64,000 nt of DNA, from NCBI GenBank assembly GCA_938074045.1, contig CALJGI010000015.1, forward strand, positions 56,019-120,018, written 5' to 3'. Positions within the stretch are counted from its first letter, which is position 1, and each line of letters starts with the position of its first letter. The position numbers were made by a program, and so were the translations under genes. Below, piece by piece: positions 9,272-35,263 of this stretch. The stretch is from an uncultured Halieaceae bacterium. Its GTDB lineage: Bacteria > Pseudomonadota > Gammaproteobacteria > Pseudomonadales > Halieaceae. The notes under the pieces were generated by a model, which was not told where the DNA came from, did no database searches, and saw only the letters and a list, made by a program, of their open reading frames with translations.

Positions 9272-10477
9272 TCAGCGAATCGGGTCCGGACCTATTTCCA
9301 GCTGTAACTCGTCGCCGTCATAGGGGAGCGACCGAGCCAGCTCCTCGTTGAGGGTGACTCCGATGCCGGGTGCGGTGGGCGGTATCACGTAACCATCTTC
9401 CCACTGTATGGGGACTTCCAGCAGATCTGCATAAATACCCTCCCAGCGCTCGATGCCTTCGAGGATCAGGAAGTTGGGTATGCAGGTGGCCAGTTGAATA
9501 TTGGCGGCGCCCACGATCGGCCCGCAATAGAGGTGAGGCGCGATCTGGGCGTAGTGAACCTCAGCCAGGGCGGCGATCTTCTTGGCCTCCAGAATGCCGC
9601 CTACTCGGCCCAGATTCGGTTGCAAAATGCGGGCAGCGCCGGCTTCCAGGACACGGGCAAACTCCTGTTTGGTACACAGCCGTTCGCCGGTGGCCACGGG
9701 CACACTGGTACCGGCGGCAACCCTTGCCATCTCGGTTGGGTTCTCCGCGCCGGTCGGCTCTTCAAACCACAGTGGGTCAGCGGATTCCAACCGTCGCGCC
9801 ATGCGCAGAGCGCCGGCGGATGTGAACTGACCGTGGGTGCCAAACAACATGTCCGCTCGATTGCCGATCGCCTGGCGGATGGTATTGACGAAGCGCTCGC
9901 TGCGGTCCAGTTCTTCAAGACTGGGCATACCCGGGTCGTACACCGTATAGGGATCCGCCGGATCAAACTTTATCGCCGTGAAACCCTGGTCAACATAGTG
10001 CAGGGCACGTTCCGCTGCCATATCGGGGTTGATGTAAACATTCTCCGTTTCCAGGTCTGGGTAGGCGTCTCCTGAGGCCGGATACAGGTAGGTGTAGCTG
10101 CGCAGCCGCTCGTGCACGCGCCCCCCCAAAAGTTCATATACCGGTTTGTCACAGGCCTTGCCGATGATGTCCCAGCAGGCAATTTCCAGCGCAGATATGA
10201 CGCCCATTAAACTGATATCGGGGCGCAGCGCATAACCGGTTCCGTAAATGCGGCGCCACATTTGTTCTATGTGAAAAGGATCCTGGCCCAGCACATGGCG
10301 CTCGGCCGTGTCCCTGATCATCTGCGCCACGGTGTGTGGCCCGAAGGTGGCGTTGTAACACTCGCCGTAGCCAACCAGACCGTTATCGGTGGTGAGCTTT
10401 ACAAAAATAAAATAGCGACCTCCGGCCCGGGGTGGGGGGTTGCCGACCACAAAGGTTTCTATGTCTGTAATTTTCAT
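9272..10477 (-). CDS. Enolase-superfamily enzyme (mandelate racemase/muconate lactonizing; galactonate/mannonate dehydratase-like subgroup)
   Basis: The N-terminus MKITDIETFVV...YFIFVKLTTDNGLVGYGE is typical of acid-sugar dehydratases of this superfamily. Its start overlaps the upstream ADH stop by ATGA. Confidence 0.75.
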   Translation of the reverse strand: MKITDIETFVVGNPPPRAGGRYFIFVKLTTDNGLVGYGECYNATFGPHTVAQMIRDTAERHVLGQDPFHIEQMWRRIYGTGYALRPDISLMGVISALEIACWDIIGKACDKPVYELLGGRVHERLRSYTYLYPASGDAYPDLETENVYINPDMAAERALHYVDQGFTAIKFDPADPYTVYDPGMPSLEELDRSERFVNTIRQAIGNRADMLFGTHGQFTSAGALRMARRLESADPLWFEEPTGAENPTEMARVAAGTSVPVATGERLCTKQEFARVLEAGAARILQPNLGRVGGILEAKKIAALAEVHYAQIAPHLYCGPIVGAANIQLATCIPNFLILEGIERWEGIYADLLEVPIQWEDGYVIPPTAPGIGVTLNEELARSLPYDGDELQLEIGPDPIR

Positions 10478-11556
10478 TGGAATATAACCACGTTGCGCAG
10501 GGCTTTGCCGGATTTTACGGAGTCGATAGCGGCGTTGATGTCTTCCAGAGGGTAGCGACCGGATATCAGCTCGTCGAGCTTCAGGGTGCCCTCAAGGTAC
10601 AGGTTCGCCAGCGCCGGGATGTCTCTGTCGACCCGGGCAGAACCCATCTTTGAACCTACTATCCGCTGTCCATATCCCGCGAGGCTGCCGGGATCATACT
10701 CGGCCATGACGCCGGCAGCGGGCATACCGACAATAACGGATGTACCGCCCCGGGCGAGAAGCCCGATGGATTGTTCGATGGCAGAACGCGCGCCAACGGT
10801 GACGAAGACATAATCCACGCCGCGCCCGCCCGTCAGCGCCTGGACTTCCTGCACCAGCGTGTCGCTGCCGCCGTTCAGCCCGTGGGTTGCGCCGAACAAT
10901 TCTGCCGCCGCCAGTTTTTCCGGTTCCAGGTCGATGGCGATTACGGTACTGGCCCTGGTATGGGCCGCCGCCTGCACACTGTTAAGTCCGACACCACCAC
11001 AGCCAATCACCGCAATATTACGGCCGGGTTCTACCGCGACCGTTTGCGTGACGGCGCCATAGCCGGTGATCACCCCGCAAGCCAGCAGCGAGGCCGCGTC
11101 CATGGGAATCGAGCTGTCTATGACACAAAGTTGGCTGGCGTCTACCACAACCTCTTCCGCAAAAGCGCCGGTGCGCAGCCCCTGGATCAGCGCGCTGCCC
11201 TGATCATCTGTCAGTGGGGATTGTGCATCCAGAGGAAACTCGGTTTCGCACAGTGGTGTTTGTCCGCGACTGCAGTAATGGCAACTGCCGCAGGCCCGGA
11301 TCAGCGTGACCACAACGTGGTCACCGGTCTGGCAGTTGCTGACGCCGTCGCCCACGGACACCACCACGCCAGCGGCTTCATGGCCGAATACGGCGGGTAG
11401 TTCGCCACCCCAGTGACCGTCCAGATAATAGATATCGCTATGACAAATAGCGCAGGCCTTGAGTTGTACGTGAACCTCACCGCTTGTGGGTGGGTTTAGC
11501 GTGACCTCTTCAATACTGAGTGGTTCAGCAAACCCTCGACACACAGCAGCTTTCAT
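10474..11556 (-). CDS. Zinc-dependent alcohol dehydrogenase (MDR family, class III-like)
   Basis: It has CAICHSD and GHEAAGVV zinc-ligand motifs, a structural-zinc Cys cluster (CGSCHYCSRGQTPLC) and a GCGGVGL Rossmann motif. Confidence 0.85.
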   Translation of the reverse strand: MKAAVCRGFAEPLSIEEVTLNPPTSGEVHVQLKACAICHSDIYYLDGHWGGELPAVFGHEAAGVVVSVGDGVSNCQTGDHVVVTLIRACGSCHYCSRGQTPLCETEFPLDAQSPLTDDQGSALIQGLRTGAFAEEVVVDASQLCVIDSSIPMDAASLLACGVITGYGAVTQTVAVEPGRNIAVIGCGGVGLNSVQAAAHTRASTVIAIDLEPEKLAAAELFGATHGLNGGSDTLVQEVQALTGGRGVDYVFVTVGARSAIEQSIGLLARGGTSVIVGMPAAGVMAEYDPGSLAGYGQRIVGSKMGSARVDRDIPALANLYLEGTLKLDELISGRYPLEDINAAIDSVKSGKALRNVVIFQ

Positions 11557-11670
11557 TATTCTTCCAACCTTACCTGGTCAGCTGATTAAGGCTGCTAGTA
11601 TTGCGTCGAGGGGCTCCCTTGTCACCTGTTGATGAGTTGTTTTTACCACGCGATACGTGGTGCTAATGGA

Positions 11671-13110
11671 TCAGTGCATGGACATCTTGTCGCCTGCTAC
11701 GCCCAGCAAATCTTTCTTCGAGGCTGTGGCAGAGCTGTGTGCGCCGACCAGGGTGTCGAACTCCCAGTCTTTCACTGCTGCGGCCAGTGCGCGTGCATTG
11801 TTACTCGGTGCTGGCAGAGTTCCGTTGCGCGGCAGTGAGAAGTGATCGGCTTCGAATACGATGCCTTGTTTGGGCAAATACACCACCAGCAGATTTTCAG
11901 TGTGTGGGGTGGGCCCAATATTTCGTATGATCACCGTCTGTGATTTGTCGGCAATGCGATGGCCGTCTGCGACGAATTCTATTTTTGCCTTTTCCCCGGC
12001 CGCGGCGCGAACCACGCCCTCATTCTCGGCCACAGTCAACAGTGTCGCCTCTGCTGCGACAAAGTCGGCGGCCCCCGGCACGTGATCGCTGTGATGATGT
12101 GTGAGCAGCGCCTGTTTTATTGGTTTTTCAGGTACTGACTTGCGCAGCTCTTCGATGCGCGTGCTGACCCCACCAGTGGCGCCTGCTGCAAAAACCGAAT
12201 CTTCCATTTCCACGAACAGGCTGTAGGCGCCGTTGGCGCCGATCAGAAAGACTCCCTCGTCGAGCGTGGTGGTGCTCATGGCATCGGGGCCTACTGGCTC
12301 GTTGACGAGAGCATCCGCCGGCAGGTCTGTGATGTCAGCCTGCGCCTTGTTTACTTTGATATTGGCCAGCTTGCGATCGAGGTTGTGATCGCCATTCAGC
12401 AGTAGTTCGAAATCGGTGTTGAAGGAGGTACCGCCAATATCCTTGTGCCTGCGAAAGCGGTATTCCACCACGCCGAAGGGAGGCAGTATGCGTTCGGCCT
12501 TATTCAGGCGTCGGGATTCCTGATCAAAATACAGGCTCAACCCCGGCCCCACTTCCATGACCAGTGTAATCACGTCGTGGGGTTTGCCATCTACTTCTGC
12601 CACACCCAACCAGTGTGAGGTATGCCGGCGTTCCTGCAGTTGCTTGACCAGCAGCGGAGTGGTGACGCGGACAAAAGGCCCTGAGGCATTGTTGAAGTCC
12701 GGCTGTTCCTGGGGTGTAACGAAACCAGCCAGGTGGTTGATGTTAAAACCTTCGTCACCATTGATGATGTTGCCGACATCAAATTTGTTACCACCGCCGG
12801 TACCAGCGGCTCGAGTGACAAATATTTTTTTCTCATAGTCGATATAGGTGCTGCCCTTTGTTTTGTCGCGATCAAAGGGCGGGCCGGGTTTGCGGCTCTG
12901 ACCGACTGCCGCAGTTTCACTGATATTGTCCATGGAAACGATGTTCAGCCCACTGATCGTTTTCGCTCCGCCGTAAGCTTCAATCACGGCGTCGATAACC
13001 TCATTGGATTTTTTGACCGCCGTTTCGGCGATACTTTGCGCGCTGACCATAGCGCTGCTGGTCAGGCTGACCATTAACGCAACAGCGCCTATTACTGATT
13101 TTCCGTTCAT
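11671..13110 (-). CDS. Secreted MBL-fold metallo-hydrolase
   Basis: It has a signal peptide MNGKSVIGAVALMVSLTSSAMVSAQS and an HHHSDH (HxHxDH) metal-binding motif. Confidence 0.75.
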   Translation of the reverse strand: MNGKSVIGAVALMVSLTSSAMVSAQSIAETAVKKSNEVIDAVIEAYGGAKTISGLNIVSMDNISETAAVGQSRKPGPPFDRDKTKGSTYIDYEKKIFVTRAAGTGGGNKFDVGNIINGDEGFNINHLAGFVTPQEQPDFNNASGPFVRVTTPLLVKQLQERRHTSHWLGVAEVDGKPHDVITLVMEVGPGLSLYFDQESRRLNKAERILPPFGVVEYRFRRHKDIGGTSFNTDFELLLNGDHNLDRKLANIKVNKAQADITDLPADALVNEPVGPDAMSTTTLDEGVFLIGANGAYSLFVEMEDSVFAAGATGGVSTRIEELRKSVPEKPIKQALLTHHHSDHVPGAADFVAAEATLLTVAENEGVVRAAAGEKAKIEFVADGHRIADKSQTVIIRNIGPTPHTENLLVVYLPKQGIVFEADHFSLPRNGTLPAPSNNARALAAAVKDWEFDTLVGAHSSATASKKDLLGVAGDKMSMH

Positions 13111-25724: not shown

Positions 25725-26119
25725 TTACATCATCTGCAGCAGTAGCCAGATTGAGCTGATCAGGATAACGAGTAGCGTTGGGAACATGCCTGAGGGTCGC
25801 AGTACCCCGGGACCTATCTCGGTTATACCCAGATAGTGGAGCACGCGCGCTACCACAAACAGGGCGCCAGGCTGTGTAGCCAGGTATCCGATGTTCCAGA
25901 GAGTTCCATCATGGTGAGCAGGATAAGGGTAATGGGCACGGTTTCGACGAAGTTGCCCTGTCCCCTGATCCGGCGCAGCATTTCGTCGTTGCCGCCATCG
26001 CCGATAAAAATTTTGGAGGAGAGGGGGTAAAAGCCAGCCCGCATTGTGACAACCAAAAACAGCAGACCGAGGACAGCCGCATACAGTGGGACGATACTTA
26101 GAGTGGATGGTAGATCCAT
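25725..26119 (-). pseudogene. MAPEG family (YecN-like) membrane protein gene interrupted by a -1 frameshift near 25860-25885
   Basis: The listed 89-aa ORF ends ...DTWLHSLAPCLW*. Shifting frame gives GALFVVARVLHYLGITEIGPGVLRPSGMFPTLLVILISSIWLLLQMM*, which is the expected MAPEG C-terminus. The total span is 395 nt, one short of a 132-codon frame. Confidence 0.7.
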
Positions 26120-26172: not shown

Positions 26173-27234
26173 CTAGGTCGCGCTCGCGCCGTAGGTACGC
26201 TTACAGTATTCTAGGCATCCCACCATACCCTCGGCCACGGACACCCGGGGCTCGTATCCCAAGTCTTTGCGAGCCTTGTCGATACTGGCGTAGTGGGTGA
26301 CAGTCACCTTATCAAGTTCATGGGGTGCCAGCATAGGACGCGACCAGTCGAATTTGAAATAGCCCATCTGCCACAAGTTCATGATGGGACGCAACAAGCC
26401 GGTGGGAAGGGTTCTGTTGGGCACCGTGTAACCCAGGCCATCAATCAACGGCCGAAAAAATTCAAAAGCGTGCATGGGCTCACCGTCGCCGATAAAGTAG
26501 GCCTGCCCACCGGCAACGCCACCGGGGACCAGGTGCTGGGCCGCGAGCAGGTGCCCGTCGATCAGGTTGTCGATGTGGGAATTATCCTGCAGCACATCCT
26601 CAGCGCCGATGCGTGCCTTCAATCGACCCGCAACCAGTTGCTCGGCGAAGCTGTCGACCATGGTGTTTGACTCTGAACCCCAGATGCCGTCGGGTCTGAT
26701 GGCGCAGGTGAGCAGGTCGGGATCTGAATTTGCGGCCAGTACCAGTTTCTCGGCGGCTATTTTTGTTTGAGAGTACACCGATTTGAATCGAGTGGCGTAG
26801 GGCTGGCTTTCATTCATATTGGGCAAGGGTTCACCCTCGAAGCAGACATCAACCGTGCTGGTGTGCACAAACCGTTTCACCCCCCGGGCAATACAGGCAT
26901 CCAGCAGATTGAAGGTGCCATCTACATTTACCTGCCAGGCCTCATCGAAATAGGCCTCGGGAACGTGTTTACCACCCAGCAGGCTGATCTGTGCTGCCGT
27001 ATGGAATACAGTGTTCACGCCGTCGCAGATTCGACTCATGGCGGCTGGCTGGGAGATATCAGCACGGAGACAGCTCAGTTTGTCGTCCTGGATATCAAGG
27101 GGGGTTCGGTGCACCAGTGCGCGCACGGTGAGGCCGTGGCCCAATAGTCGCCGCACGAGGTTGCGGCCCACAAAGCCAGCGGCTCCGGTTACCAGGCATA
27201 TACCAAGGTCTTCTGCACGAAAAGGAGCTGTCAT
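26173..27234 (-). CDS. NAD(P)-dependent 3-beta-hydroxysteroid dehydrogenase/epimerase family protein
   Basis: It has the Rossmann motif VTGAAGFVGRNL and the catalytic YSQTK (YxxxK). Confidence 0.8.
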   Translation of the reverse strand: MTAPFRAEDLGICLVTGAAGFVGRNLVRRLLGHGLTVRALVHRTPLDIQDDKLSCLRADISQPAAMSRICDGVNTVFHTAAQISLLGGKHVPEAYFDEAWQVNVDGTFNLLDACIARGVKRFVHTSTVDVCFEGEPLPNMNESQPYATRFKSVYSQTKIAAEKLVLAANSDPDLLTCAIRPDGIWGSESNTMVDSFAEQLVAGRLKARIGAEDVLQDNSHIDNLIDGHLLAAQHLVPGGVAGGQAYFIGDGEPMHAFEFFRPLIDGLGYTVPNRTLPTGLLRPIMNLWQMGYFKFDWSRPMLAPHELDKVTVTHYASIDKARKDLGYEPRVSVAEGMVGCLEYCKRTYGASAT

Positions 27235-27390: not shown

Positions 27391-29535
27391 ATGAAAACAG
27401 ATGGTAAGATTGTCATGTTGAGAATGGTTGTTGCTGCGATTATTGCTATGGCGCTTTCAGCCTGTCGTATCAGCGTCGAGGTCCCCGAGGGTGGCTACCT
27501 GGTGTCAGCGTCCGGTAATTACGACTGTATCGACCCGGATGGCGCGCCACTACCCGCCGCAGCACCGAATGGGCGGGATCGCCACCTGCACCGCCCCGGC
27601 GAGGTCAGCACCCAGCACGATGAGAATTTTCATTGTGAGATTGATGTCAGCGATACCTCATTTAATGAAACCCTCACCGCCGTGGCATACGATGGATGGC
27701 AATTCAGTCACTGGCGCTCAGCCGAGGGCAGTTTGTACGGTGGCACCTCAGCCAACCCCATTCAACTGTGGACCCTGGGTTTTGATGCTTTTCCGGTGCT
27801 GATGGATGTCCTGGCGTCCAACACGACCTACTACCTGGAGCCCATTTTCAAGCGTGTCAGCGCTGATGGCAACGATTTGGCCTGCGACGATTTCAGCGGC
27901 AGTTTCGAGCGCATCCAATCGATAGTATTTGATGGCTACAACTGCACTAATTCCGCCTGTCATGGCGGTAGCGCCAATGCCGGTGGTCTCGATCTCAGCC
28001 CGGCCGTCGCCTATGACAATTTATTCCGGGTCGATTCCACGGCCAACCTGGCGGAGCCCCGGCAGCGTGTTTATCCCGGCGAGCAGAAACTCAGTTTCCT
28101 CTATCAGAAACTGGAAGCGGGTACATTGGGAACCGCATTGCCCACCGGTGGCGGCCAGGTGATGCCCATCGGTGGCTCTGCGCTCTCCGCCGATCATCTG
28201 GAGGCCCTGCGCTTGTGGATTCGCGGCGGGGCACCAGAATTTCAGGATGTAGATAACGTTGCCACCCTGCTGGGCTGCTCTCAGCCCACCCCATCCCAGG
28301 CGAATAAGATTGAACCACCCGCAGCACCCCCGCTGGGCGAGGGCGTGCAGTTTGTCAGCGGGCCCTGGACGGTGGAAGCTGACAGTGAGAACGAGGTGTG
28401 CTACGCCACCTACTATGATCTGGAGCAGACCCCTGGACTGTTACCCGATTGGGCCAAAACGGAGTGTGAAGGCAGCATCTATGCCGACTATGATGGCACC
28501 TGTATGGCCATCAACTCGCAAATCCTCACGCAGGATCCGCAGTCACATCACAGTATTATCGATGTGTATGTGGGCACCGCGACGCCGCTGGATGAATCCT
28601 GGGGTGAATGGCAGTGCTTGAATGGACCCAGCGCCGGTGCCGCTTGCGACCCTACAAAAATCGGTGTGCCGGTGTCACAGGGCGGAGCAGACTGCGGCGG
28701 TGATTTGTACGTCTGCGGAACGCCAGCGCAAAAATCAACAGCCTGTATTGGCTGGGGTCCAAGAGACAACCGCTTCAAACAGGTGAGCATGGGCGGCAGT
28801 CAGGCACCCATATCGGTCAACAAATTGCGCGAGGGGATTTACTCGGTGCTGCCAACCAAGGGCGTGATTGCATGGAATTCGCATGCTTTCAACCTGAGTG
28901 ATCAGGAAACAACGGTAGAACAGTACAATAATTTTACCTTTGCACCCGCGGACGCCAGGGAACACCGTAATCGGGCAATTTTTGACTCGCGTTGGATTTT
29001 TACCGCCAACGTACCAGTGTTTGAACAGCGGACATACTGTTCCACCTATGTCATCCCACAGGGTGCGCGTCTCACCTCGCTCAGTTCACACGCCCACCAG
29101 CGCGGTGTGCATTGGCAGACCTGGTTGCCGCCGAATGACCCAGCCTGTCGCCCGAATACCGGCTGTGAGCCCAACGAGCGCCCGGAGGACTATGTCAGCC
29201 GCATCTACAATGACCCGTTGGAGATTGAATACGATCCACCGCTGGAATTTGATTCCGCTGACATTACGCAGCGTACATTCAAGTATTGCTCCACCTATGA
29301 CAACGGATTTAACTTTCCTGACCTGCTGAAACGCAACTCCACCTCCGTGGGTTCCACCTGTATTGGCAACGCCTATTGCGTCGGTGGTTCCACTCCGGGT
29401 CTGGCCTGCGGTAGCGATGACAGCCTGTGCGGCGATGGCGGTTCCTGTGATGCCTGCCCCGTGGTGGGTGGCGTAACTACCGAGGATGAAATGTTCATCC
29501 TGCTGGGTAACTACTACTTGCTACCGGTGAATTAA
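27391..29535 (+). CDS. Cysteine-rich lipoprotein: PSCyt1-like motif region plus possible PHM/DBH-type copper-monooxygenase-like region
   Basis: It has a lipobox ...MALSAC. Residues 185-282 (CTNSACHGG..GGLDLS....VMPIGG..LSADHLEALRLWIRGGAPE) resemble the planctomycete cytochrome c domain. Residues HH386/387, H498, H567-A-H569-QRG and TTEDEM701FILLGNYY resemble copper type II monooxygenase ligands. Confidence 0.6.
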   Translation: MKTDGKIVMLRMVVAAIIAMALSACRISVEVPEGGYLVSASGNYDCIDPDGAPLPAAAPNGRDRHLHRPGEVSTQHDENFHCEIDVSDTSFNETLTAVAYDGWQFSHWRSAEGSLYGGTSANPIQLWTLGFDAFPVLMDVLASNTTYYLEPIFKRVSADGNDLACDDFSGSFERIQSIVFDGYNCTNSACHGGSANAGGLDLSPAVAYDNLFRVDSTANLAEPRQRVYPGEQKLSFLYQKLEAGTLGTALPTGGGQVMPIGGSALSADHLEALRLWIRGGAPEFQDVDNVATLLGCSQPTPSQANKIEPPAAPPLGEGVQFVSGPWTVEADSENEVCYATYYDLEQTPGLLPDWAKTECEGSIYADYDGTCMAINSQILTQDPQSHHSIIDVYVGTATPLDESWGEWQCLNGPSAGAACDPTKIGVPVSQGGADCGGDLYVCGTPAQKSTACIGWGPRDNRFKQVSMGGSQAPISVNKLREGIYSVLPTKGVIAWNSHAFNLSDQETTVEQYNNFTFAPADAREHRNRAIFDSRWIFTANVPVFEQRTYCSTYVIPQGARLTSLSSHAHQRGVHWQTWLPPNDPACRPNTGCEPNERPEDYVSRIYNDPLEIEYDPPLEFDSADITQRTFKYCSTYDNGFNFPDLLKRNSTSVGSTCIGNAYCVGGSTPGLACGSDDSLCGDGGSCDACPVVGGVTTEDEMFILLGNYYLLPVN

Positions 29536-29603: not shown

Positions 29604-30449
29604 TCACGCGTCCAGGGCGACCTGCTGCTCCTGGTCGATGTCCTGTCGCCACTCACTGAGGTTGGATTCGATCGCCCAGAAACCACATATCCATAGCATC
29701 TGATCCCAGGCATAGACCCAGTGGCCGGTCCACAGCCACCAGGCGGCGTCCATAAACAAAATGGCGTAAAAAAATCGCCCGGCGTGACTGACCGTCATCA
29801 AACGCCCACCGGAGATATTTTTGTTTTGCAGCCACACCGCCAGTTCGATAGCCCAGATGACTAGCAGCCATACCGAGGCATCGATCATGTCTACCAACAC
29901 ATGTTTCCTCTCCAACGCGTAGCCATCGGTGTCGGTAACCACGGTGGGGTCGAGGTAGTAAAAGGTGGTGTCTGTAGAAATGGTTTTACAGTTGTTACTG
30001 TCGATCAATTCGTAGCGATAATTCTCGCCAAATGAGATGTCCTGATCCGTCAGCTGACACAGGGAACTGATCTCAGTGGCCGGCACAACGGCTTCCGTAT
30101 CGATCAGCGTTGTGGCACGGGCGAACACGGTGTGCGCCAGAAAGATATAGCAGACCAGGCGCATGCCATGAATCGACCATATCAGCGGTTTTGATTCAAA
30201 GGCCTCGTCCTCCAGGGCATAAGTTTCCAGTTCAAGCATGAACAGTAGACCGAACCAGGCGAACTCGTCGATGGTGGTGGCGAAGGCCTGGGTCCACTCC
30301 AAAAAAGTGCCGCCATTGCGCAGGGTGTGTGAGGCGATATAGGCCTCTTCAACAGCGTAGTAACCCCAGTTCAGCAGCAATAGCGAGTACACCGTCCACT
30401 TCAGTACCTGGCTTTTATCGGCGTTTTGCCAGCGTTCAGCGATAGTCAC
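29604..30449 (-). CDS. Hypothetical polytopic membrane protein
   Basis: The ORF is 281 aa with several hydrophobic, Trp-rich segments. I recognised no family. Confidence 0.55.
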   Translation of the reverse strand: MTIAERWQNADKSQVLKWTVYSLLLLNWGYYAVEEAYIASHTLRNGGTFLEWTQAFATTIDEFAWFGLLFMLELETYALEDEAFESKPLIWSIHGMRLVCYIFLAHTVFARATTLIDTEAVVPATEISSLCQLTDQDISFGENYRYELIDSNNCKTISTDTTFYYLDPTVVTDTDGYALERKHVLVDMIDASVWLLVIWAIELAVWLQNKNISGGRLMTVSHAGRFFYAILFMDAAWWLWTGHWVYAWDQMLWICGFWAIESNLSEWRQDIDQEQQVALDA

Positions 30450-31926: not shown

Positions 31927-33111
31927 TTAGAGGCTGAAGTTTCCGTCATGCAGGCCTGGAAATAGCTTCTCCAGAGCGGCCCGGTCCTCGCTACTCAAGG
32001 CCTTCCAGACTTCACAAAGATCGCGCCACACCGCTACCTGAAAAGTTTTAACCACGGCACGGAAGGGGTGGCCCTGCAGCACGCCGTCATACAAGGATTC
32101 ACCGCGATCAAACGCCTCTTCATTAAAAGGGGTCAGATCCCTTTTTTGACTCAGCGAGCGGTAGGCGGCGTCATTTTGTTGCATCAGGGGAACAAAGGTC
32201 TCGCTAATAGCGGCCATAAGCGGTGCGAGATCGGAGTTCAGTGTCAGCTTCCCATCGCTACCTGCCTGCCTGCCGTCGCGAATATTACACAGCCATCGGA
32301 ACGTGAGGGGAGCCAGTTCCTCTATCAACTCGGCGGCGCGACCATCTACTAGATTCATGCTGAGTTGCCCGTAGGCCGATGCATCCGCCAGCGTGAACTG
32401 GTGCCCGAGTAAGAACGGTTGCTGTTGTAGGATGTTTTCCATGGCGGCGAGATATTGGCGCCAGGCGTTATCCAGTAGTTGGTGAGTGGGGGGAAAGCCT
32501 TCTCTGGATGGTGGCGTCAATTGAGGGCTTACTCCCAGGTCCAGCCCCGCGGGTGCCACGCTGAACAGATAGGGGCAGCGCCGCACCTGGCGGTGGGGCA
32601 GTCTTTTAGCCATGATGCGACGCACACCCGGCGGCAGGAGTTTGCGAAACTCCCGGCTGGTCATCCGCCCCATTTGATTGGTGGCCGCGGATGTCACCCA
32701 GCGATTGTGGTGCACCATGTAAAGACCGAATTCATCGAAGGCCTCATCGATCAGGTGGCAGACAAAGTCGAGCTGTGGTGAAGCGGGTAGCAATGGTGTC
32801 GGGGTTGTAGCAAGCGAGTCCAGATGCTCGGCCAACGCCGAGGAATCGTAGTAAAAACTTGAGCCGTCAAAGCTGTAATAGGGAACGGCGGGGTATTCGT
32901 CCAGCTCTGCATCCCGGCCCGTATATTTTTTGACGGAGGCCGATTTTTGCGCAGACTGCAGCCGCCGGAAGGTTGTAAATGCCTGCCTCAGCGTTGCCTG
33001 ATCAGGCCAGCGTTGCCAGGGGACATTGGCATGGTTGGCCAGCGCCTGTACCTTCAATTGAAAAGGTGAGGCGATGACCCCCCAAAATATTAGCTGCTGC
33101 GGGTCACTCAC
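31927..33111 (-). CDS. Glutathione S-transferase-like protein (long form)
   Basis: It has a thioredoxin-like N-terminus (LIFWGVIASPFQLKV...PAVPYY) and a GST C-terminal-type helix (FLLGHQFTLADASAYGQL). I chose GTG 33111, which overlaps the upstream cupin stop by 8 nt. The listed 33249 start would lie inside the cupin gene. Confidence 0.6.
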   Translation of the reverse strand: MSDPQQLIFWGVIASPFQLKVQALANHANVPWQRWPDQATLRQAFTTFRRLQSAQKSASVKKYTGRDAELDEYPAVPYYSFDGSSFYYDSSALAEHLDSLATTPTPLLPASPQLDFVCHLIDEAFDEFGLYMVHHNRWVTSAATNQMGRMTSREFRKLLPPGVRRIMAKRLPHRQVRRCPYLFSVAPAGLDLGVSPQLTPPSREGFPPTHQLLDNAWRQYLAAMENILQQQPFLLGHQFTLADASAYGQLSMNLVDGRAAELIEELAPLTFRWLCNIRDGRQAGSDGKLTLNSDLAPLMAAISETFVPLMQQNDAAYRSLSQKRDLTPFNEEAFDRGESLYDGVLQGHPFRAVVKTFQVAVWRDLCEVWKALSSEDRAALEKLFPGLHDGNFSL

Positions 33112-33631
33112 CGACGATAATAACGCCGTCGCAGTTCTCGCCGTAGAGTTCGCACAGGCCGCGGTAGGCCATGAGAATGCTGCGGGCGTCGACGATGCTG
33201 GTGACGTCACCCTTATCATCGATGTTGATATTGCTGCCAAAAATGGCAAACCACACTACCGCGTCTTCGGTGGCGTCTTGGGCGACGGTGAGGGTGTGCA
33301 GTGAATGCGCCGGTTCATAGAGGTACGATCCCGCCTTGTTGACCTTGTCGGGATACTCCTCGTAAAACCATTCGCCGGATTGAGTAACGGCGAATACCGG
33401 ACCGGTATGGTAGTGGGTGTCGACCTTGAATCCCGGACGGAAGCGATTGCGAACAATCCACAGATTCTGATTCAAATCCACCTGTAGTAATTGCAGCGTG
33501 GACCCATCGGGTAATTCGACATGGGGCAAGTCCTCGTCATGCAGCAGAATTGCTTCGCGACTGTTCTCGCGACTTACTACAGGGCCTTCGGCCATTGCCG
33601 CCAGCATCTCCAGTGCGGTCATCTCACTCAT
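33104..33631 (-). CDS. Cupin domain protein (ChrR-like cupin / 2,4'-dihydroxyacetophenone dioxygenase family)
   Basis: It has an HYHTGPVFAVTQSGEWFYEEY...YLYEPAHSLHTL metal-ligand pattern and is ~175 aa. Confidence 0.6.
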   Translation of the reverse strand: MSEMTALEMLAAMAEGPVVSRENSREAILLHDEDLPHVELPDGSTLQLLQVDLNQNLWIVRNRFRPGFKVDTHYHTGPVFAVTQSGEWFYEEYPDKVNKAGSYLYEPAHSLHTLTVAQDATEDAVVWFAIFGSNINIDDKGDVTSIVDARSILMAYRGLCELYGENCDGVIIVGE

Positions 33632-33676: not shown

Positions 33677-33856
33677 TTATTTCTTCTTTTTTGGCGCAGT
33701 CTTCTTTTTGGCTGCCGGCGCTTTTTTTGCGGCTGGTTTTTTCTTTGGTGCAGCTTTTTTCCTGGCCACTGGCTTCTTTTTTGCGGCGGCAGATTTTGTG
33801 CGTGCTTTGGCGGTTGAACGCGGCGCTTTTTCCTTCGCTGTCCCGGCCGGCCCACC
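33677..33856 (-). repeat. Low-complexity coding repeat (AKKK/PAAKK units) encoding a histone-H1/AlgP-like tail
   Basis: The plus strand shows iterated GC(G/T)GC...TTTTTT units. These units also generate three spurious overlapping ORFs in the track. Confidence 0.8.
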
Positions 33857-35263
33857 GGTGGGGATGCCCGCGGCGACTTCCAGCTCAACCAGGGCATCTT
33901 CCATATAGTCGATCAGCCGCTGTACCTGGGGCATGGAGCGTCGGCAGGCGATGATACCGAAATCGACGTTGCGATCGTAGGTCACCAGCGTGATGTTCAG
34001 GGCGATGCCATCGGTAATGATGGACATGGGATAGGAACCCTCCATGCGCGCGCCATTCCAGTACATCTTCTGCCGAATACCTGGTACGTTGGATATGACG
34101 GTGTTAAATGGCGGCATCTTGCTCGCCAGGCCCAGTGGCATCAGCAACATGGCGGGAGACTGAATCAGCATGCTGAACAGTGTTACTTCCTCGGCACTCA
34201 TGCCGCTATAGAAGTCCTTACCGGCCTTTGTAGAGGCCTTGATAGCCTGAATACGCTTCGCCGGGTCGCTGATGTTGGTGGCGAGGTCCGCGCTGATAGA
34301 GGCCACTGCATTGGTGGAATCGACATCGCCTGCCTGCCGCAGCGATACCGGAACCATGGCTTTCAGCGAGTCATCCGGCATCACGCCGTGCCGCTGCAAA
34401 TAGGTTCTGAGCGCGCCGGCGCACATGGCGAGTACGGCGTCGTTAAATGTGCCGTCATATGCTTTGCCGATGGCGTGAATGCGCGCAAAAGGCCAGGACT
34501 GGGCGACAAAGCGACGAGCGCTACCCACCGAGGTATTGATGTGGCTGGTGGGCACCTGCATAAAGGGCAGCATCAAGGCACCACCTTCGCCGCGCCAGGC
34601 ATTGGTAAAACGCTTGAGAGCACCATATAGATTACCGCTGGTGTCATAGACAGCTTTGAGTGCCTCGGATACTGTGCGCAGATTGGAGTCACCCAGACCA
34701 TTTTCCCGCGCCGTTGGCAGGGTGGCCCGGTAGCGCTCCCAGGAGTTCATCGACATGGGGGATTCCAGCATGCGCGAGGTGGGGTCTGCCGACAACATGC
34801 TGCGACTGAGATGTACCGACCGCGCGCCATCAATGGCGGCGTGATGGGTCTTGGTGTACATGGCGAACTGACGCTTCTGTAAACCTTCGATCAGATGGGT
34901 TTCCCACAGCGGGCGGCTGCGATCCAGCAGGGTGGTGTGTAATCTGGAGGCCAGATTGAACAATTCGCGGTAGCGTCCTGGTTCGGGTAGGGCGGAGTGA
35001 CGTATGTGATATTCGATATCCAGCGCTGGATCCGGTTCCCAATAGACGTTGCCCGCCATGCCCAGTAGCCCGGTTTTGATGCGATCGCCAAAGGGCGGTA
35101 GTAACTTGTCAAAGTTGCGCAGGCCATCAGCGGTTTCCCGCAAAAACTCCTGCTCATCTGCGCCCTCGGGCAGTGTGTACAGGCTGACACCTGCCACATG
35201 CATGGGGGTTTCCCGGGTTTCTGCTATCAGAAACCCTTTGTCGACAAAATTAAGTTTTTTCAT
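33677..35263 (-). CDS. Wax ester synthase/diacylglycerol acyltransferase (WS/DGAT) with Lys/Ala/Pro-rich C-terminal tail
   Basis: It has the catalytic HHAAIDG (HHxxxDG) motif and a conserved N-terminus (LNFVDKGFLIAETRETPMHV). The last ~59 aa are ...AKEKAPRSTAKARTKSAAAKKKPVARKKAAPKKKPAAKKAPAAKKKTAPKKKK. Confidence 0.85.
   Translation of the reverse strand: MKKLNFVDKGFLIAETRETPMHVAGVSLYTLPEGADEQEFLRETADGLRNFDKLLPPFGDRIKTGLLGMAGNVYWEPDPALDIEYHIRHSALPEPGRYRELFNLASRLHTTLLDRSRPLWETHLIEGLQKRQFAMYTKTHHAAIDGARSVHLSRSMLSADPTSRMLESPMSMNSWERYRATLPTARENGLGDSNLRTVSEALKAVYDTSGNLYGALKRFTNAWRGEGGALMLPFMQVPTSHINTSVGSARRFVAQSWPFARIHAIGKAYDGTFNDAVLAMCAGALRTYLQRHGVMPDDSLKAMVPVSLRQAGDVDSTNAVASISADLATNISDPAKRIQAIKASTKAGKDFYSGMSAEEVTLFSMLIQSPAMLLMPLGLASKMPPFNTVISNVPGIRQKMYWNGARMEGSYPMSIITDGIALNITLVTYDRNVDFGIIACRRSMPQVQRLIDYMEDALVELEVAAGIPTGGPAGTAKEKAPRSTAKARTKSAAAKKKPVARKKAAPKKKPAAKKAPAAKKKTAPKKKK

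What the first reader, a model, noticed from the sequence alone, without database searches (positions are those of the whole stretch)
27391..29535. Cysteine-rich lipoprotein combining a PSCyt1-like motif with a PHM/DBH-type copper-monooxygenase ligand pattern
Residues 185-282 read C-TNSA-CH-GG...GGLDLS...MPIGG..LSADHLEALRLWIRGGAPE. This resembles the planctomycete cytochrome c (PSCyt1) domain, but with a CX4CH spacing instead of CXXCH. The C-terminal 390 aa contain, in order, HH (386-387), H498, H567-A-H569-QRG and TTEDEM701FILLGNYY. Copper type II ascorbate-dependent monooxygenases have CuH ligands HH...H, CuM ligands H-x-H (PROSITE-type H-T-H-x2-G) and a Met in a T-x-DEM-C...YY context. The H498-to-H567 spacing of 69 compares with 70 in PHM. 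More than 30 Cys suggest many disulfides. A periplasmic haem-type domain feeding electrons to a binuclear-copper monooxygenase would be a novel bacterial redox enzyme architecture.
Basis: partly seen in the sequence, partly recalled or inferred. Interest (0 to 1): 0.7.

Follow-up and report, generated by a model that had tools for sequence, protein, structure and literature searches.

The report
Haem-fused bacterial PHM-like copper enzyme
This gene encodes a bacterial lipoprotein that joins a c-type cytochrome module to a two-domain copper-enzyme fold otherwise known from animal hormone-making enzymes (PHM, dopamine beta-hydroxylase), and it belongs to a large, unnamed family that probably uses its built-in haem in place of vitamin C as electron supply.

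Summary

Haem module (residues 165-295): C-x4-CH is 219/219 conserved. Ten relatives have canonical CXXCH at the same aligned site. An axial-ligand-like Met258-Pro259 is 230/233 conserved. The module's profile matches multihaem proteins that pass Pfam thresholds for PSCyt1 and cytochrome c, and FoxE in the PDB.

Copper half (residues ~318-714): a confident AlphaFold model (pLDDT above 90 there) has human DBH and rat PHM as its top 30 PDB matches (prob 1.00). The only conserved His/Met are H386, H387, H498, H567, H569 and M701 (≥98.7%), in PHM order. Profile alignment places HxHxxG and DEM on PHM H242/H244 and M314.

The fusion is obligate (179/180) and there is no conserved partner gene. Pfam, NCBIfam and PDB sequence searches find nothing for the copper half, and no paper in the searched library describes it.

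Not shown: metal and haem binding, ligand geometry (no coordinates available), direction of electron flow, and substrate.

Verdict: a new variant of a known kind, an undescribed bacterial haem c-PHM/DBH-like family.

The parts
27391..29535 (+). Complete ORF, 714 aa plus stop codon; haem c-PHM/DBH-like fusion lipoprotein
   Evidence: An identical protein (P0001) is found on public contigs.
27391..27465 (+). Signal peptide with lipobox L-S-A-C25 (residues 1-25)
   Evidence: Read directly from the sequence. The model puts a helix at residues 4-21. A lipobox-like motif occurs in 62 of 176 full-length relatives.
27466..27870 (+). Variable N-terminal beta-rich module (residues 26-160), low model confidence
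   Evidence: Only a sub-threshold Flg_new_2 / InlB B-repeat hit at residues 94-122. Relatives carry DUF4214, DUF4215, TSP3, dockerin or other modules here instead. pLDDT is 42-84.
27883..28275 (+). PSCyt1-type c-type cytochrome module (residues 165-295)
   Evidence: The isolated-domain model has pLDDT 91.6.
27943..27963 (+). Haem attachment motif C185-TNSA-C190-H191 (CX4CH)
   Evidence: 219/219 conserved. The same aligned site is CXXCH in 10 of 120 relatives.
28162..28167 (+). M258-P259, candidate distal axial Met ligand of the haem
   Evidence: M is 230/233 and P is 229/233 conserved. It aligns to the 'MP' of FoxE and of cytochrome c-552.
28342..28950 (+). PHM-like N-terminal beta-sandwich (putative CuH subdomain, residues ~318-520), with a Cys-rich insert at ~405-460
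   Evidence: Model pLDDT above 90. Foldseek hits to DBH and PHM.
28546..28551 (+). H386-H387, putative CuH ligands (PHM H107/H108 equivalents)
   Evidence: 231/233 and 232/233 conserved. They lie at the start of a strand that follows a hairpin. The residue-level match to PHM is inferred from order, not aligned.
28882..28884 (+). H498, putative third CuH ligand (PHM H172 equivalent)
   Evidence: 229/230 conserved. It is 69 residues before H567, against 70 in PHM.
28951..29532 (+). PHM-like C-terminal beta-sandwich (putative CuM subdomain, residues ~521-714), with a Cys-rich insert at ~575-690
29089..29097 (+). H567-A-H569, putative CuM ligands (PHM H242/H244 equivalents)
   Evidence: 222/225 each. 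hhalign places them on PHM H242-T-H244-xxG. The strict PHM signature matches at this site in 13 members.
29491..29493 (+). M701, putative CuM Met ligand (PHM M314 equivalent), in the T-T-E-D-E-M...YY context
   Evidence: 211/213 conserved. hhalign puts it on PHM M314.

Best explanation
The gene encodes a secreted, lipid-anchored, self-contained redox enzyme with three parts.

(1) A variable N-terminal beta-rich module. Its role is not known; anchoring or targeting is a guess based on what relatives carry at that position.

(2) A monohaem c-type cytochrome of the PSCyt1 type. Haem is attached through an unusual C-x4-CH motif. His191 and Met258 are the likely axial ligands, which is the arrangement expected of an electron carrier rather than a catalytic haem.

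(3) A disulfide-rich, two-beta-sandwich catalytic core with the PHM/DBH fold. It carries a CuH-type site (H386, H387, H498) and a CuM-type site (H567, H569, M701).

Proposed mechanism. The haem takes electrons one at a time from the periplasmic respiratory pool. It passes them within the protein to the copper pair, replacing the ascorbate used by the animal enzymes. CuM then binds O2 and hydroxylates a C-H bond of a substrate that is not yet known.

Shown here: the architecture, the fold, ligand conservation, the obligate fusion and the family's size. Inferred: metal and haem occupancy, direction of electron flow, oxygenase chemistry. The substrate is unknown. It is probably not a C-terminal glycine peptide, because PHM's substrate-anchoring residues R240, N316 and Y318 have no counterparts.
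For: Fold: the AlphaFold2 model has mean pLDDT 85.1 and pTM 0.71, with residues 300-714 mostly above 90. The top 30 Foldseek PDB hits are all DBH (4zel, E 7e-9) or PHM (E about 1e-6; TM-score normalised to target 0.38-0.59; prob 1.00). The next hits are jelly-roll capsid proteins and PNGase F, at prob about 0.5 or lower and target-normalised TM below 0.3.

Ligands: exactly five His and one Met are conserved (98.7% or more of 213-233 sequences), in PHM order. The other His and Met of this region vary.

CuM motifs: the two best hhalign local alignments against a 34-sequence PHM profile are colinear. They put H567/H569/G572 on H242/H244/G247 and D-E-M701 on D-E-M314. Thirteen members match H.F....HTH..G at that site, and the commonest residues there are F562 and T568.

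Haem: CX4CH occurs in 106 of 120 relatives and CXXCH in 10, at the same aligned position. Relatives with tandem copies of the module pass the Pfam gathering cut-offs for PSCyt1, Cytochrome_CBB3 and Cytochrom_C. They align over the whole module at E 1e-16 to 1e-36, and single proteins mix CXXCH and CX4CH repeats. The best PDB sequence hit is FoxE, a dihaem cytochrome c (E 0.005), with both motifs aligned. UniProt's automatic name for the Sorangium member is 'Cytochrome c domain-containing protein'.

Coupling: 179 of 180 complete cores have the haem module directly upstream. No partner gene is conserved across clades.

Precedent, from my own knowledge: cytochrome c-fused copper nitrite reductases, and the cytochrome domains that reduce LPMO copper.
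Against: The copper half shows no significant sequence-level link to the Cu2_monooxygenase family. Pfam gives no hit. A PHM HMM run without filters scores at most 5.4 bits on 264 members. The hhalign E-values are only 0.04-0.06, and the CuH subdomain does not align at all.

The isolated haem module has no significant Foldseek match, not even to cytochromes c.

PHM's first signature, HHM..F.C, matches 0 of 264 members.

The direction of electron flow and the chemistry are not constrained by any data obtained here.
Confidence: 0.7

Rival explanations
1. Same architecture, opposite electron flow. The copper core acts as an oxidase or dehydrogenase that oxidises a substrate (for example a metal ion such as Fe(II) or Mn(II), or a small reductant). 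The electrons leave through the haem to the respiratory chain or to O2, so the protein is not a monooxygenase.
For: The best PDB sequence match of the haem module is FoxE, a putative iron oxidase. The same haem module is fused to a lysyl-oxidase domain in P0244, so the module serves different copper enzymes. Nothing obtained here fixes the direction of electron transfer.
Against: A CuM-type His2Met site in the T-x-D-E-M context is the O2-activating site in every characterised member of this fold (established knowledge of PHM, DBH and TBM), and it is 99% conserved here. The FoxE match covers only the generic cytochrome motifs.
Confidence: 0.15
2. The C-terminal double beta-sandwich is a non-catalytic binding or structural domain (PNGase F-like, lectin-like or jelly-roll). 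The conserved His/Met residues serve a structural metal site or no metal at all. The protein would then be mainly an anchored cytochrome.
For: There is no significant sequence-level similarity to the Cu2 monooxygenases. Jelly-roll proteins and PNGase F also appear among the weaker Foldseek hits. N-terminal modules in relatives look like adhesion or scaffold domains.
Against: PHM and DBH hold all top 30 places at prob 1.00, while PNGase F and the capsid proteins sit at prob about 0.5 or lower with much lower TM-scores. The conserved set is exactly 3 His plus 2 His/1 Met, in PHM order, with PHM-like local motifs. The obligate fusion to an electron carrier makes little sense for a passive domain.
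Confidence: 0.07
3. The CX4CH motif is not a haem attachment site (for example a disulfide or another metal site), and residues 165-295 form a haem-free helical domain.
For: No CXXCH is present in the window protein. Pfam gives no hit for it. Foldseek finds no cytochrome c match for the isolated module.
Against: CXXCH replaces CX4CH at the same aligned site in 10 relatives. CXXCH and CX4CH repeats alternate within single PSCyt1-positive proteins. Cys, Cys and His are 219/219 conserved and Met-Pro about 99%. FoxE and cytochrome c-552/c-551 are the top PDB sequence matches. From my own knowledge, CX4CH haem attachment is documented in Desulfovibrio cytochrome c3-type proteins; I tried to confirm this in a paper and did not find the passage.
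Confidence: 0.06

Closest known systems
Peptidylglycine alpha-hydroxylating monooxygenase (PHM) and dopamine beta-hydroxylase (DBH); copper type II ascorbate-dependent monooxygenases (Pfam PF01082 + PF03712)
   Same: The two-beta-sandwich catalytic fold is shared (top 30 Foldseek hits). So is the ordered ligand set HH...H / HxH...M, the local CuM motifs H-x-H-x-x-G and [TS]-x-D-E-M...Y-Y, and the H-to-HxH spacing of 69 against 70. Both are disulfide-rich secreted proteins.
   Different: The window protein is bacterial and its family is undetectable with Pfam or PHM HMMs. It has large Cys-rich inserts: HH-to-H is 111 residues against 64, and HxH-to-M is 132 against 70. PHM signature 1 (HHM..F.C) is absent. 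PHM's substrate-binding residues R240, N316 and Y318 have no counterparts. It carries a fused c-type cytochrome, whereas the animal enzymes depend on soluble ascorbate (and DBH has a DOMON domain).
PSCyt1 (PF07635, 'Planctomycete cytochrome C') and related class I-type cytochrome c modules; FoxE (PDB 5mab)
   Same: The module layout is shared: N-terminal helix, Cys-x(n)-Cys-His, GGLDL, PG-x-x-x-S-x-L-Y-x-K, M-P, and L-x-x-W-I-x-x-G-A. Tandem-repeat relatives pass the PSCyt1 gathering cut-off.
   Different: The window module itself is below every Pfam threshold. It uses CX4CH rather than CXXCH. It is fused to a PHM-like core rather than to the PSCyt2/PSD (DUF1553/DUF1549) partners that, from my own knowledge, are typical in Planctomycetes.
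Copper enzymes with a tethered or partner cytochrome as electron donor: cytochrome c-fused copper nitrite reductases, and cellobiose dehydrogenase / CYBDOM cytochrome domains that reduce LPMO copper (from my own knowledge)
   Same: The logic is the same: a one-electron haem carrier linked to a copper active site, which makes the enzyme independent of a diffusible small-molecule reductant.
   Different: The copper folds are unrelated (cupredoxin trimer, or LPMO immunoglobulin-like fold), and in CDH/CYBDOM the haem type differs (haem b). No such arrangement has been reported for the PHM/DBH fold in the library searched.

Membership tests
Copper type II ascorbate-dependent monooxygenases (PHM/DBH; Pfam PF01082 Cu2_monooxygen + PF03712 Cu2_monoox_C) | Significant match to the family's sequence models | tested here: not met
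   No Pfam hit for the window protein at E<=10. One of 38 relatives hits Cu2_monoox_C, at E 0.28. A PHM-family HMM run without filters scores at most 5.4 bits on 264 members. hhalign E-values are 0.04-0.06.
Copper type II ascorbate-dependent monooxygenases (PHM/DBH) | Catalytic core made of two beta-sandwich subdomains (the PHM fold) | tested here: met
   Model pLDDT is above 90 over the core. Foldseek's top 30 PDB hits are all DBH or PHM, at prob 1.00, E 7e-9 to 1e-4, target-normalised TM up to 0.59.
Copper type II ascorbate-dependent monooxygenases (PHM/DBH) | CuM site: H-x-H plus a Met in the D-E-M context, in the C-terminal subdomain | tested here: met
   H567, H569 and M701 are 99% conserved. 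hhalign places them on H242, H244 and M314. The strict signature H.F....HTH..G matches at this site in 13 members.
Copper type II ascorbate-dependent monooxygenases (PHM/DBH) | CuH site: HH plus a distal His, in the N-terminal subdomain | tested here: inconclusive
   H386, H387 and H498 are 99% conserved, in the right order, with PHM-like spacing to the HxH motif. However, no profile alignment covers them, and signature HHM..F.C matches 0 of 264 members.
Copper type II ascorbate-dependent monooxygenases (PHM/DBH) | Ligands form two copper sites facing an interdomain cleft about 11 A apart; copper is actually bound | not testable with these tools
   The structure tool does not return model coordinates, and there are no metal data.
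Copper type II ascorbate-dependent monooxygenases (PHM/DBH) | Ascorbate as the physiological reductant | not testable with these tools
   From the obligate fused cytochrome, I infer that ascorbate is replaced; this was not measured.
c-type cytochromes, PSCyt1-type module (PF07635) | Cys-x(n)-Cys-His haem attachment motif with a conserved distal ligand | tested here: met
   C185, C190 and H191 are 219/219 conserved and M258 is 230/233. CXXCH and CX4CH are interchangeable at the same aligned site.
c-type cytochromes, PSCyt1-type module (PF07635) | Significant match to the family model | tested here: inconclusive
   The window protein gives no hit, and 2 of 38 relatives reach only E 0.15. The link is indirect: the module's HMM matches P0226, P0252 and P0263 at E 1e-16 to 1e-25 per domain, and these proteins pass the PSCyt1 cut-off (38-49 bits against 22) and the Cytochrome_CBB3 cut-off.
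c-type cytochromes, PSCyt1-type module (PF07635) | Cytochrome c fold | tested here: inconclusive
   The isolated-module model is confident (pLDDT 91.6) and all-helical, with N- and C-terminal helices flanking the motif and the Met. Foldseek nevertheless finds no significant PDB match. By sequence profile the best PDB hit is FoxE at E 0.005.
Bacterial lipoproteins | Signal peptide ending in a lipobox [LVI][ASTVI][GAS]C | tested here: met
   L22-S-A-C25 follows a hydrophobic helix at residues 4-21. The lipobox pattern is recalled from memory. A looser version of it matches 62 of 176 full-length relatives.

The most novel reading that the evidence does not exclude
This family is a previously unrecognised class of bacterial O2-activating copper monooxygenases. 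It would be a distant prokaryotic branch of the PHM/DBH fold that is wired directly to the respiratory chain through a covalently fused CX4CH cytochrome c. That wiring would make it independent of ascorbate. It would hydroxylate an as yet unknown periplasmic or cell-surface substrate in Halieaceae, Myxococcota and Binatia.
Probability: 0.5. Interest if true: 0.8.

Novelty: new variant of a known kind. Interest (0 to 1): 0.7.

Why it matters
PHM, DBH and TBM are the textbook 'noncoupled binuclear copper' monooxygenases. They are studied almost only in animal enzymes, which are hard to express and which need ascorbate.

A bacterial relative with a built-in haem electron donor would help in two ways. 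First, electron entry into CuH and the long-debated CuH-to-CuM transfer could be triggered and followed optically through the haem. Second, it would open a pool of uncharacterised oxygenases with 437 loci in species-representative genomes and 379 protein clusters (50% identity) at E<=1e-30.

The family has no Pfam or NCBIfam model and is annotated 'hypothetical protein', so it is invisible to current annotation. Relatives exist in cultured strains (Sorangium cellulosum; Candidatus Seongchinamella marina IMCC8485), so the prediction can be tested directly.

Tried and rejected
Direct family scans. Pfam and NCBIfam find nothing relevant for the window protein. PDB sequence searches with the single protein and with the full-length profile give no usable hit.

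Profile comparisons with PHM. hhalign in global mode against PHM produced a meaningless alignment. hhalign of the CuH subdomain aligned only a Cys loop. A PHM HMM run without filters against 264 family members, with reversed sequences as a control, stayed at noise level.

Haem-module fold. Foldseek with the isolated haem module found no cytochrome match.

Model coordinates. I looked for them in order to measure ligand distances, but none are exposed.

Conserved partner gene. I inspected contexts of six homologs. I also clustered all ORFs from 80 genome loci. Only within-clade synteny turned up, and high-GC shadow ORFs made the ORF calling noisy. The downstream membrane protein in the window is unrelated to the gene downstream of the homolog in L008.

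Substrate from context. Neighbourhoods have a loose lipid / hydrophobic-metabolism flavour (3beta-HSD/SDR, thiolase, WS/DGAT, GST, MAPEG, YceI, epoxide hydrolase). This is not consistent enough to support any substrate claim, so I rejected it as evidence.

Literature. Eight searches and two paper look-ups found no description of a bacterial cytochrome c-PHM fusion. The look-up meant to document CX4CH haem attachment found no passage, so that point rests on my own knowledge.
Full report
**Observation.** The window holds an ATG-initiated ORF at 27391..29535 on the + strand, encoding 714 aa.
- C185-TNSA-C190-H191, with no CXXCH anywhere in the protein
- H386-H387, H498 and H567-A-H569-QRG
- TTEDEM701FILLGNYY at the C-terminus
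- an N-terminal signal peptide ending in the lipobox L-S-A-C25

The only factual error is the cysteine count: 25, not 'more than 30'. I retrieved the authentic rat PHM catalytic-core sequence from the PDB (4e4z_A; chain residue 1 = PAM residue 45). On it the third CuH His and the first CuM His are 70 residues apart, against 69 here.

**The family.** The protein is not an orphan.
- A word-indexed search found 523 relatives. They share residues ~165-714, while the N-terminus varies (DUF4214, DUF4215 cysteine-rich repeats, or nothing).
- An exhaustive profile search of 1.84 billion cluster representatives gave 379 proteins at E<=1e-30, 3,718 at E<=1e-10 and 11,850 at E<=1e-3. Only the best 150 are listed; I assume the weaker hits are mostly cytochrome-module-only matches, but I did not inspect them.
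- A scan of one genome per species found 437 loci. These lie mainly in Halieaceae (marine Gammaproteobacteria), Myxococcota (Polyangiales, Sandaracinaceae), Candidatus Binatia and 'delta proteobacterium' MAGs, and several genomes carry two or three paralogs.
- The best match there is 69% identical, in a Halieaceae MAG, so the window most likely comes from a Halieaceae-like gammaproteobacterium.
- Public records call these proteins 'hypothetical protein'. UniProt's automatic name for the Sorangium cellulosum member is 'Cytochrome c domain-containing protein'.
- Neither Pfam nor NCBIfam has a model that recognises the window protein. The only hit is a sub-threshold InlB B-repeat match in the N-terminal module.

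**The haem module (residues 165-295).** The evidence is at the sequence level and I consider it strong.
- Over 264 family sequences, C185, C190 and H191 are present in 219 of 219 sequences that cover the site, M258 in 230 of 233 and P259 in 229 of 233.
- Of 120 relatives, 106 have CX4CH and 10 have canonical CXXCH. In the alignment the CXXCH members simply have a two-column gap between the two cysteines.
- The module also occurs as tandem repeats in other proteins. P0226 has four CXXCH copies. P0252 and P0263 have one CXXCH and three CX4CH copies each. These proteins pass the Pfam gathering cut-offs for PSCyt1 (38-49 bits against 22), for Cytochrome_CBB3 (P0226, P0252 and P0263) and for Cytochrom_C (P0226 and P0252).
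- An HMM of the window family's module aligns to each repeat over its whole length, with domain E-values from 1e-16 to 1e-36. All landmarks match: Cys-x(n)-Cys-His, GLDL, PG...S.LY.K, MP and WI..GA.
- The module profile's best PDB match by sequence is FoxE (5mab), a dihaem c-type cytochrome, at E 0.005. FoxE's CxxCH aligns to Cx4CH across a 2-residue gap, and its 'MPLG...WILAGAP' aligns to the family's Met-Pro and C-terminal helix. Weaker hits include several further c-type cytochromes (c-552, c-551 and a putative cytochrome c), mixed with unrelated proteins.
- The fold-level test was inconclusive. The isolated module folds confidently (pLDDT 91.6; helices flank the motif and follow the Met), but Foldseek returns no significant PDB match.

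A covalently bound, probably His/Met-ligated haem points to an electron-transfer role. That last step rests on established knowledge of class I cytochromes c, not on a test made here.

**The copper half (residues ~318-714).** The main evidence here is structural.
- With a 38-sequence alignment, AlphaFold2 gives mean pLDDT 85.1 and pTM 0.71. Nearly all of residues 300-714 are above 90, and the region is all-beta.
- In Foldseek against the PDB, the top 30 hits are all human dopamine beta-hydroxylase (4zel, E 7e-9) or rat PHM entries (E from about 1e-6 to 1e-4; target-normalised TM 0.38-0.59; prob 1.00).
- The next hits are double-jelly-roll capsid proteins and a PNGase F-like protein, at prob about 0.5 or lower and target-normalised TM below 0.3.
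- At sequence level the relationship is almost invisible. PDB sequence searches find nothing. A PHM-family HMM run without filters scores at most 5.4 bits on 264 members.
- What sequence similarity remains sits on the active-site motifs. I built a 34-sequence PHM-family profile in which every protein carries PF01082 and nearly all also PF03712. Against it, the two best local hhalign alignments are colinear. They place H567-A-H569-Q-R-G572 on H242-T-H244-H-L-G247, and G-V-T-T-E-D-E-M701...Y-Y on G-G-T-S-S-D-E-M314...Y-Y (E 0.038 and 0.058).
- Thirteen family members match the strict PHM signature H-x-F-x4-H-T-H-x2-G at this aligned site. I recalled that pattern from memory and validated it on 74 of 120 real PHM-family sequences. 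The commonest residues in the family's columns there are F562 and T568, so the family consensus is more PHM-like than the window protein itself.

**Ligand set.** Conservation isolates exactly the PHM set: H386 231/233, H387 232/233, H498 229/230, H567 222/225, H569 222/225 and M701 211/213. The window protein's other His (525, 574) and Met (372, 467) in this region are freely replaced.

For the CuH site, the residue-level equivalence to PHM H107/H108/H172 rests on order, spacing and secondary-structure position. The HH opens a strand after a hairpin, and H498 lies near the end of a strand. It does not rest on an alignment, and PHM's first signature HHM..F.C is absent.

Relative to PHM there are two large Cys-rich inserts: HH-to-H is 111 residues against 64, and HxH-to-M is 132 against 70. 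Sixteen conserved cysteines in this region suggest about eight disulfides.

PHM's substrate-anchoring residues have no counterparts. R240 lies two residues before H242, and N316 and Y318 follow M314; here the corresponding stretches read S-S-H-A-H and M-F-I-L-L. The R240 comparison extends the alignment by register and is an inference. A glycine-extended peptide is therefore unlikely to be the substrate.

**Coupling and context.** Of 180 sequences with a complete core and at least 140 residues upstream of it, 179 carry the haem module: 177 have one copy and 2 have two. The single exception is P0221. I found no conserved neighbour.
- Inspection of six homolog contexts shows different neighbours in each.
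- Clustering all ORFs from 80 genome loci shows that no real immediate neighbour is shared by more than about 4 loci. The larger neighbour clusters I checked match genes syntenic around a Myxococcota homolog (L011).
- In the window the gene is flanked by a divergent 3beta-HSD-family dehydrogenase plus a short MAPEG ORF upstream, and by a convergent unannotated membrane protein followed by glutamate dehydrogenase downstream.

So the protein looks like a self-contained unit whose only obligate partner is its own haem.

**Mechanism proposed.**
- Shown: a secreted lipoprotein with a PSCyt1-type CX4CH cytochrome module joined to a PHM/DBH-fold core that conserves the CuH-type and CuM-type ligand sets.
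- Inferred: the haem accepts single electrons from periplasmic carriers and delivers them to the copper pair, taking the place of ascorbate. CuM then activates O2 and hydroxylates a C-H bond.

Precedents for tethered haem donors to copper enzymes are, from my own knowledge, cytochrome c-fused copper nitrite reductases and the CDH/CYBDOM-LPMO systems.

The variable N-terminal modules in relatives (InlB B-repeat-like, DUF4214, DUF4215, TSP3, dockerin, TIG, a PQQ-type propeller) hint at surface or polymer association. They do not identify a substrate.

The main rival keeps the architecture but reverses the electron flow, giving an oxidase whose electrons leave through the haem. Passive-domain and haem-free readings are unlikely for the reasons given under the rival explanations.

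**Comparison and novelty.** Functionally and structurally this is closest to PHM/DBH. By family membership it fails the sequence-model criterion, meets the fold and CuM-motif criteria, and is inconclusive for CuH. I therefore file it as a distant, new branch of the PHM/DBH fold, not as a member of PF01082/PF03712. The haem module is a divergent PSCyt1-type cytochrome c.

Eight full-text searches and two paper look-ups found no description of a bacterial cytochrome c-PHM/DBH fusion. That library lacks most subscription journals, and superfamily-level database annotations could not be checked.

I rate it a new variant of a known kind, with interest 0.7. It is a large, unannotated family and could offer bioinorganic chemists a bacterial, haem-triggerable model of noncoupled binuclear copper monooxygenases. 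Metal binding, geometry, chemistry and substrate all remain to be shown.

Noticed in passing
P0244 (832 aa, Logan assemblies); not in the window: Two copies of the same CX4CH PSCyt1-like module (residues 29-152 and 420-541) are fused to a Lysyl_oxidase domain (PF01186, residues 676-760). The haem module therefore appears to be a reusable electron-transfer cassette for different copper enzymes.
   Followed up: partly
P0226, P0231, P0252, P0263 (relatives from the representative search): These proteins carry tandem arrays of the module. P0226 has 4 CXXCH copies. P0231 has 3 CHRD domains plus 5 CXXCH copies. P0252 and P0263 each have 1 CXXCH and 3 CX4CH copies. CXXCH and CX4CH variants coexist within single polypeptides.
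   Followed up: partly
P0123 (1249 aa) and P0221 (1458 aa): P0123 adds a PQQ-type beta-propeller (about residues 795-950) after the complete haem-copper core. P0221 is the only complete core found without a haem module or any C-x(2-4)-CH motif.
   Followed up: no
L003 (Sorangium cellulosum CP012672.1), genes around 10001-11689: The Sorangium homolog lies 63 bp downstream of a same-strand type II thioesterase gene. Nearby are a 9,237-aa megasynthase-sized ORF, an acyl-CoA dehydrogenase and a methyltransferase, which could indicate a link to a natural-product cluster. This arrangement was not seen in other clades.
   Followed up: no
window 29604-30449 (-): A 281-aa ORF convergent with the finding has no Pfam hit. 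It reads as a multi-pass membrane protein. It is unrelated to the unannotated gene downstream of the homolog in L008.
   Followed up: partly
window 25850-26119 (-) and 26173-27234 (-): A short MAPEG-family ORF (89 aa, covering positions 2-86 of a 129-position model) lies downstream of a 3beta-HSD/epimerase-family gene that is transcribed divergently from the finding. The same pair is present on the identical public contig L001.
   Followed up: no
haem module, the W-I-x-x-G-A region (window residues ~270-285) and P0226 residues 137-165: There are weak local hits to PF06934 (fatty acid cis/trans isomerase, a periplasmic haem protein): E 0.18 in one family member and E 0.0013 in P0226. This suggests that the N-terminus of CTI may contain a related cytochrome module.
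   Followed up: no
window 31927-33249 (-) and 33677-35263 (-): A 440-aa protein has only weak GST C-terminal domain hits, and next to it is a WS/DGAT wax-ester synthase. A WS/DGAT gene also lies near the homolog in L010, and GST genes flank the homologs in L006 and L009. This is a loose recurring lipid/glutathione theme without statistical support.
   Followed up: partly
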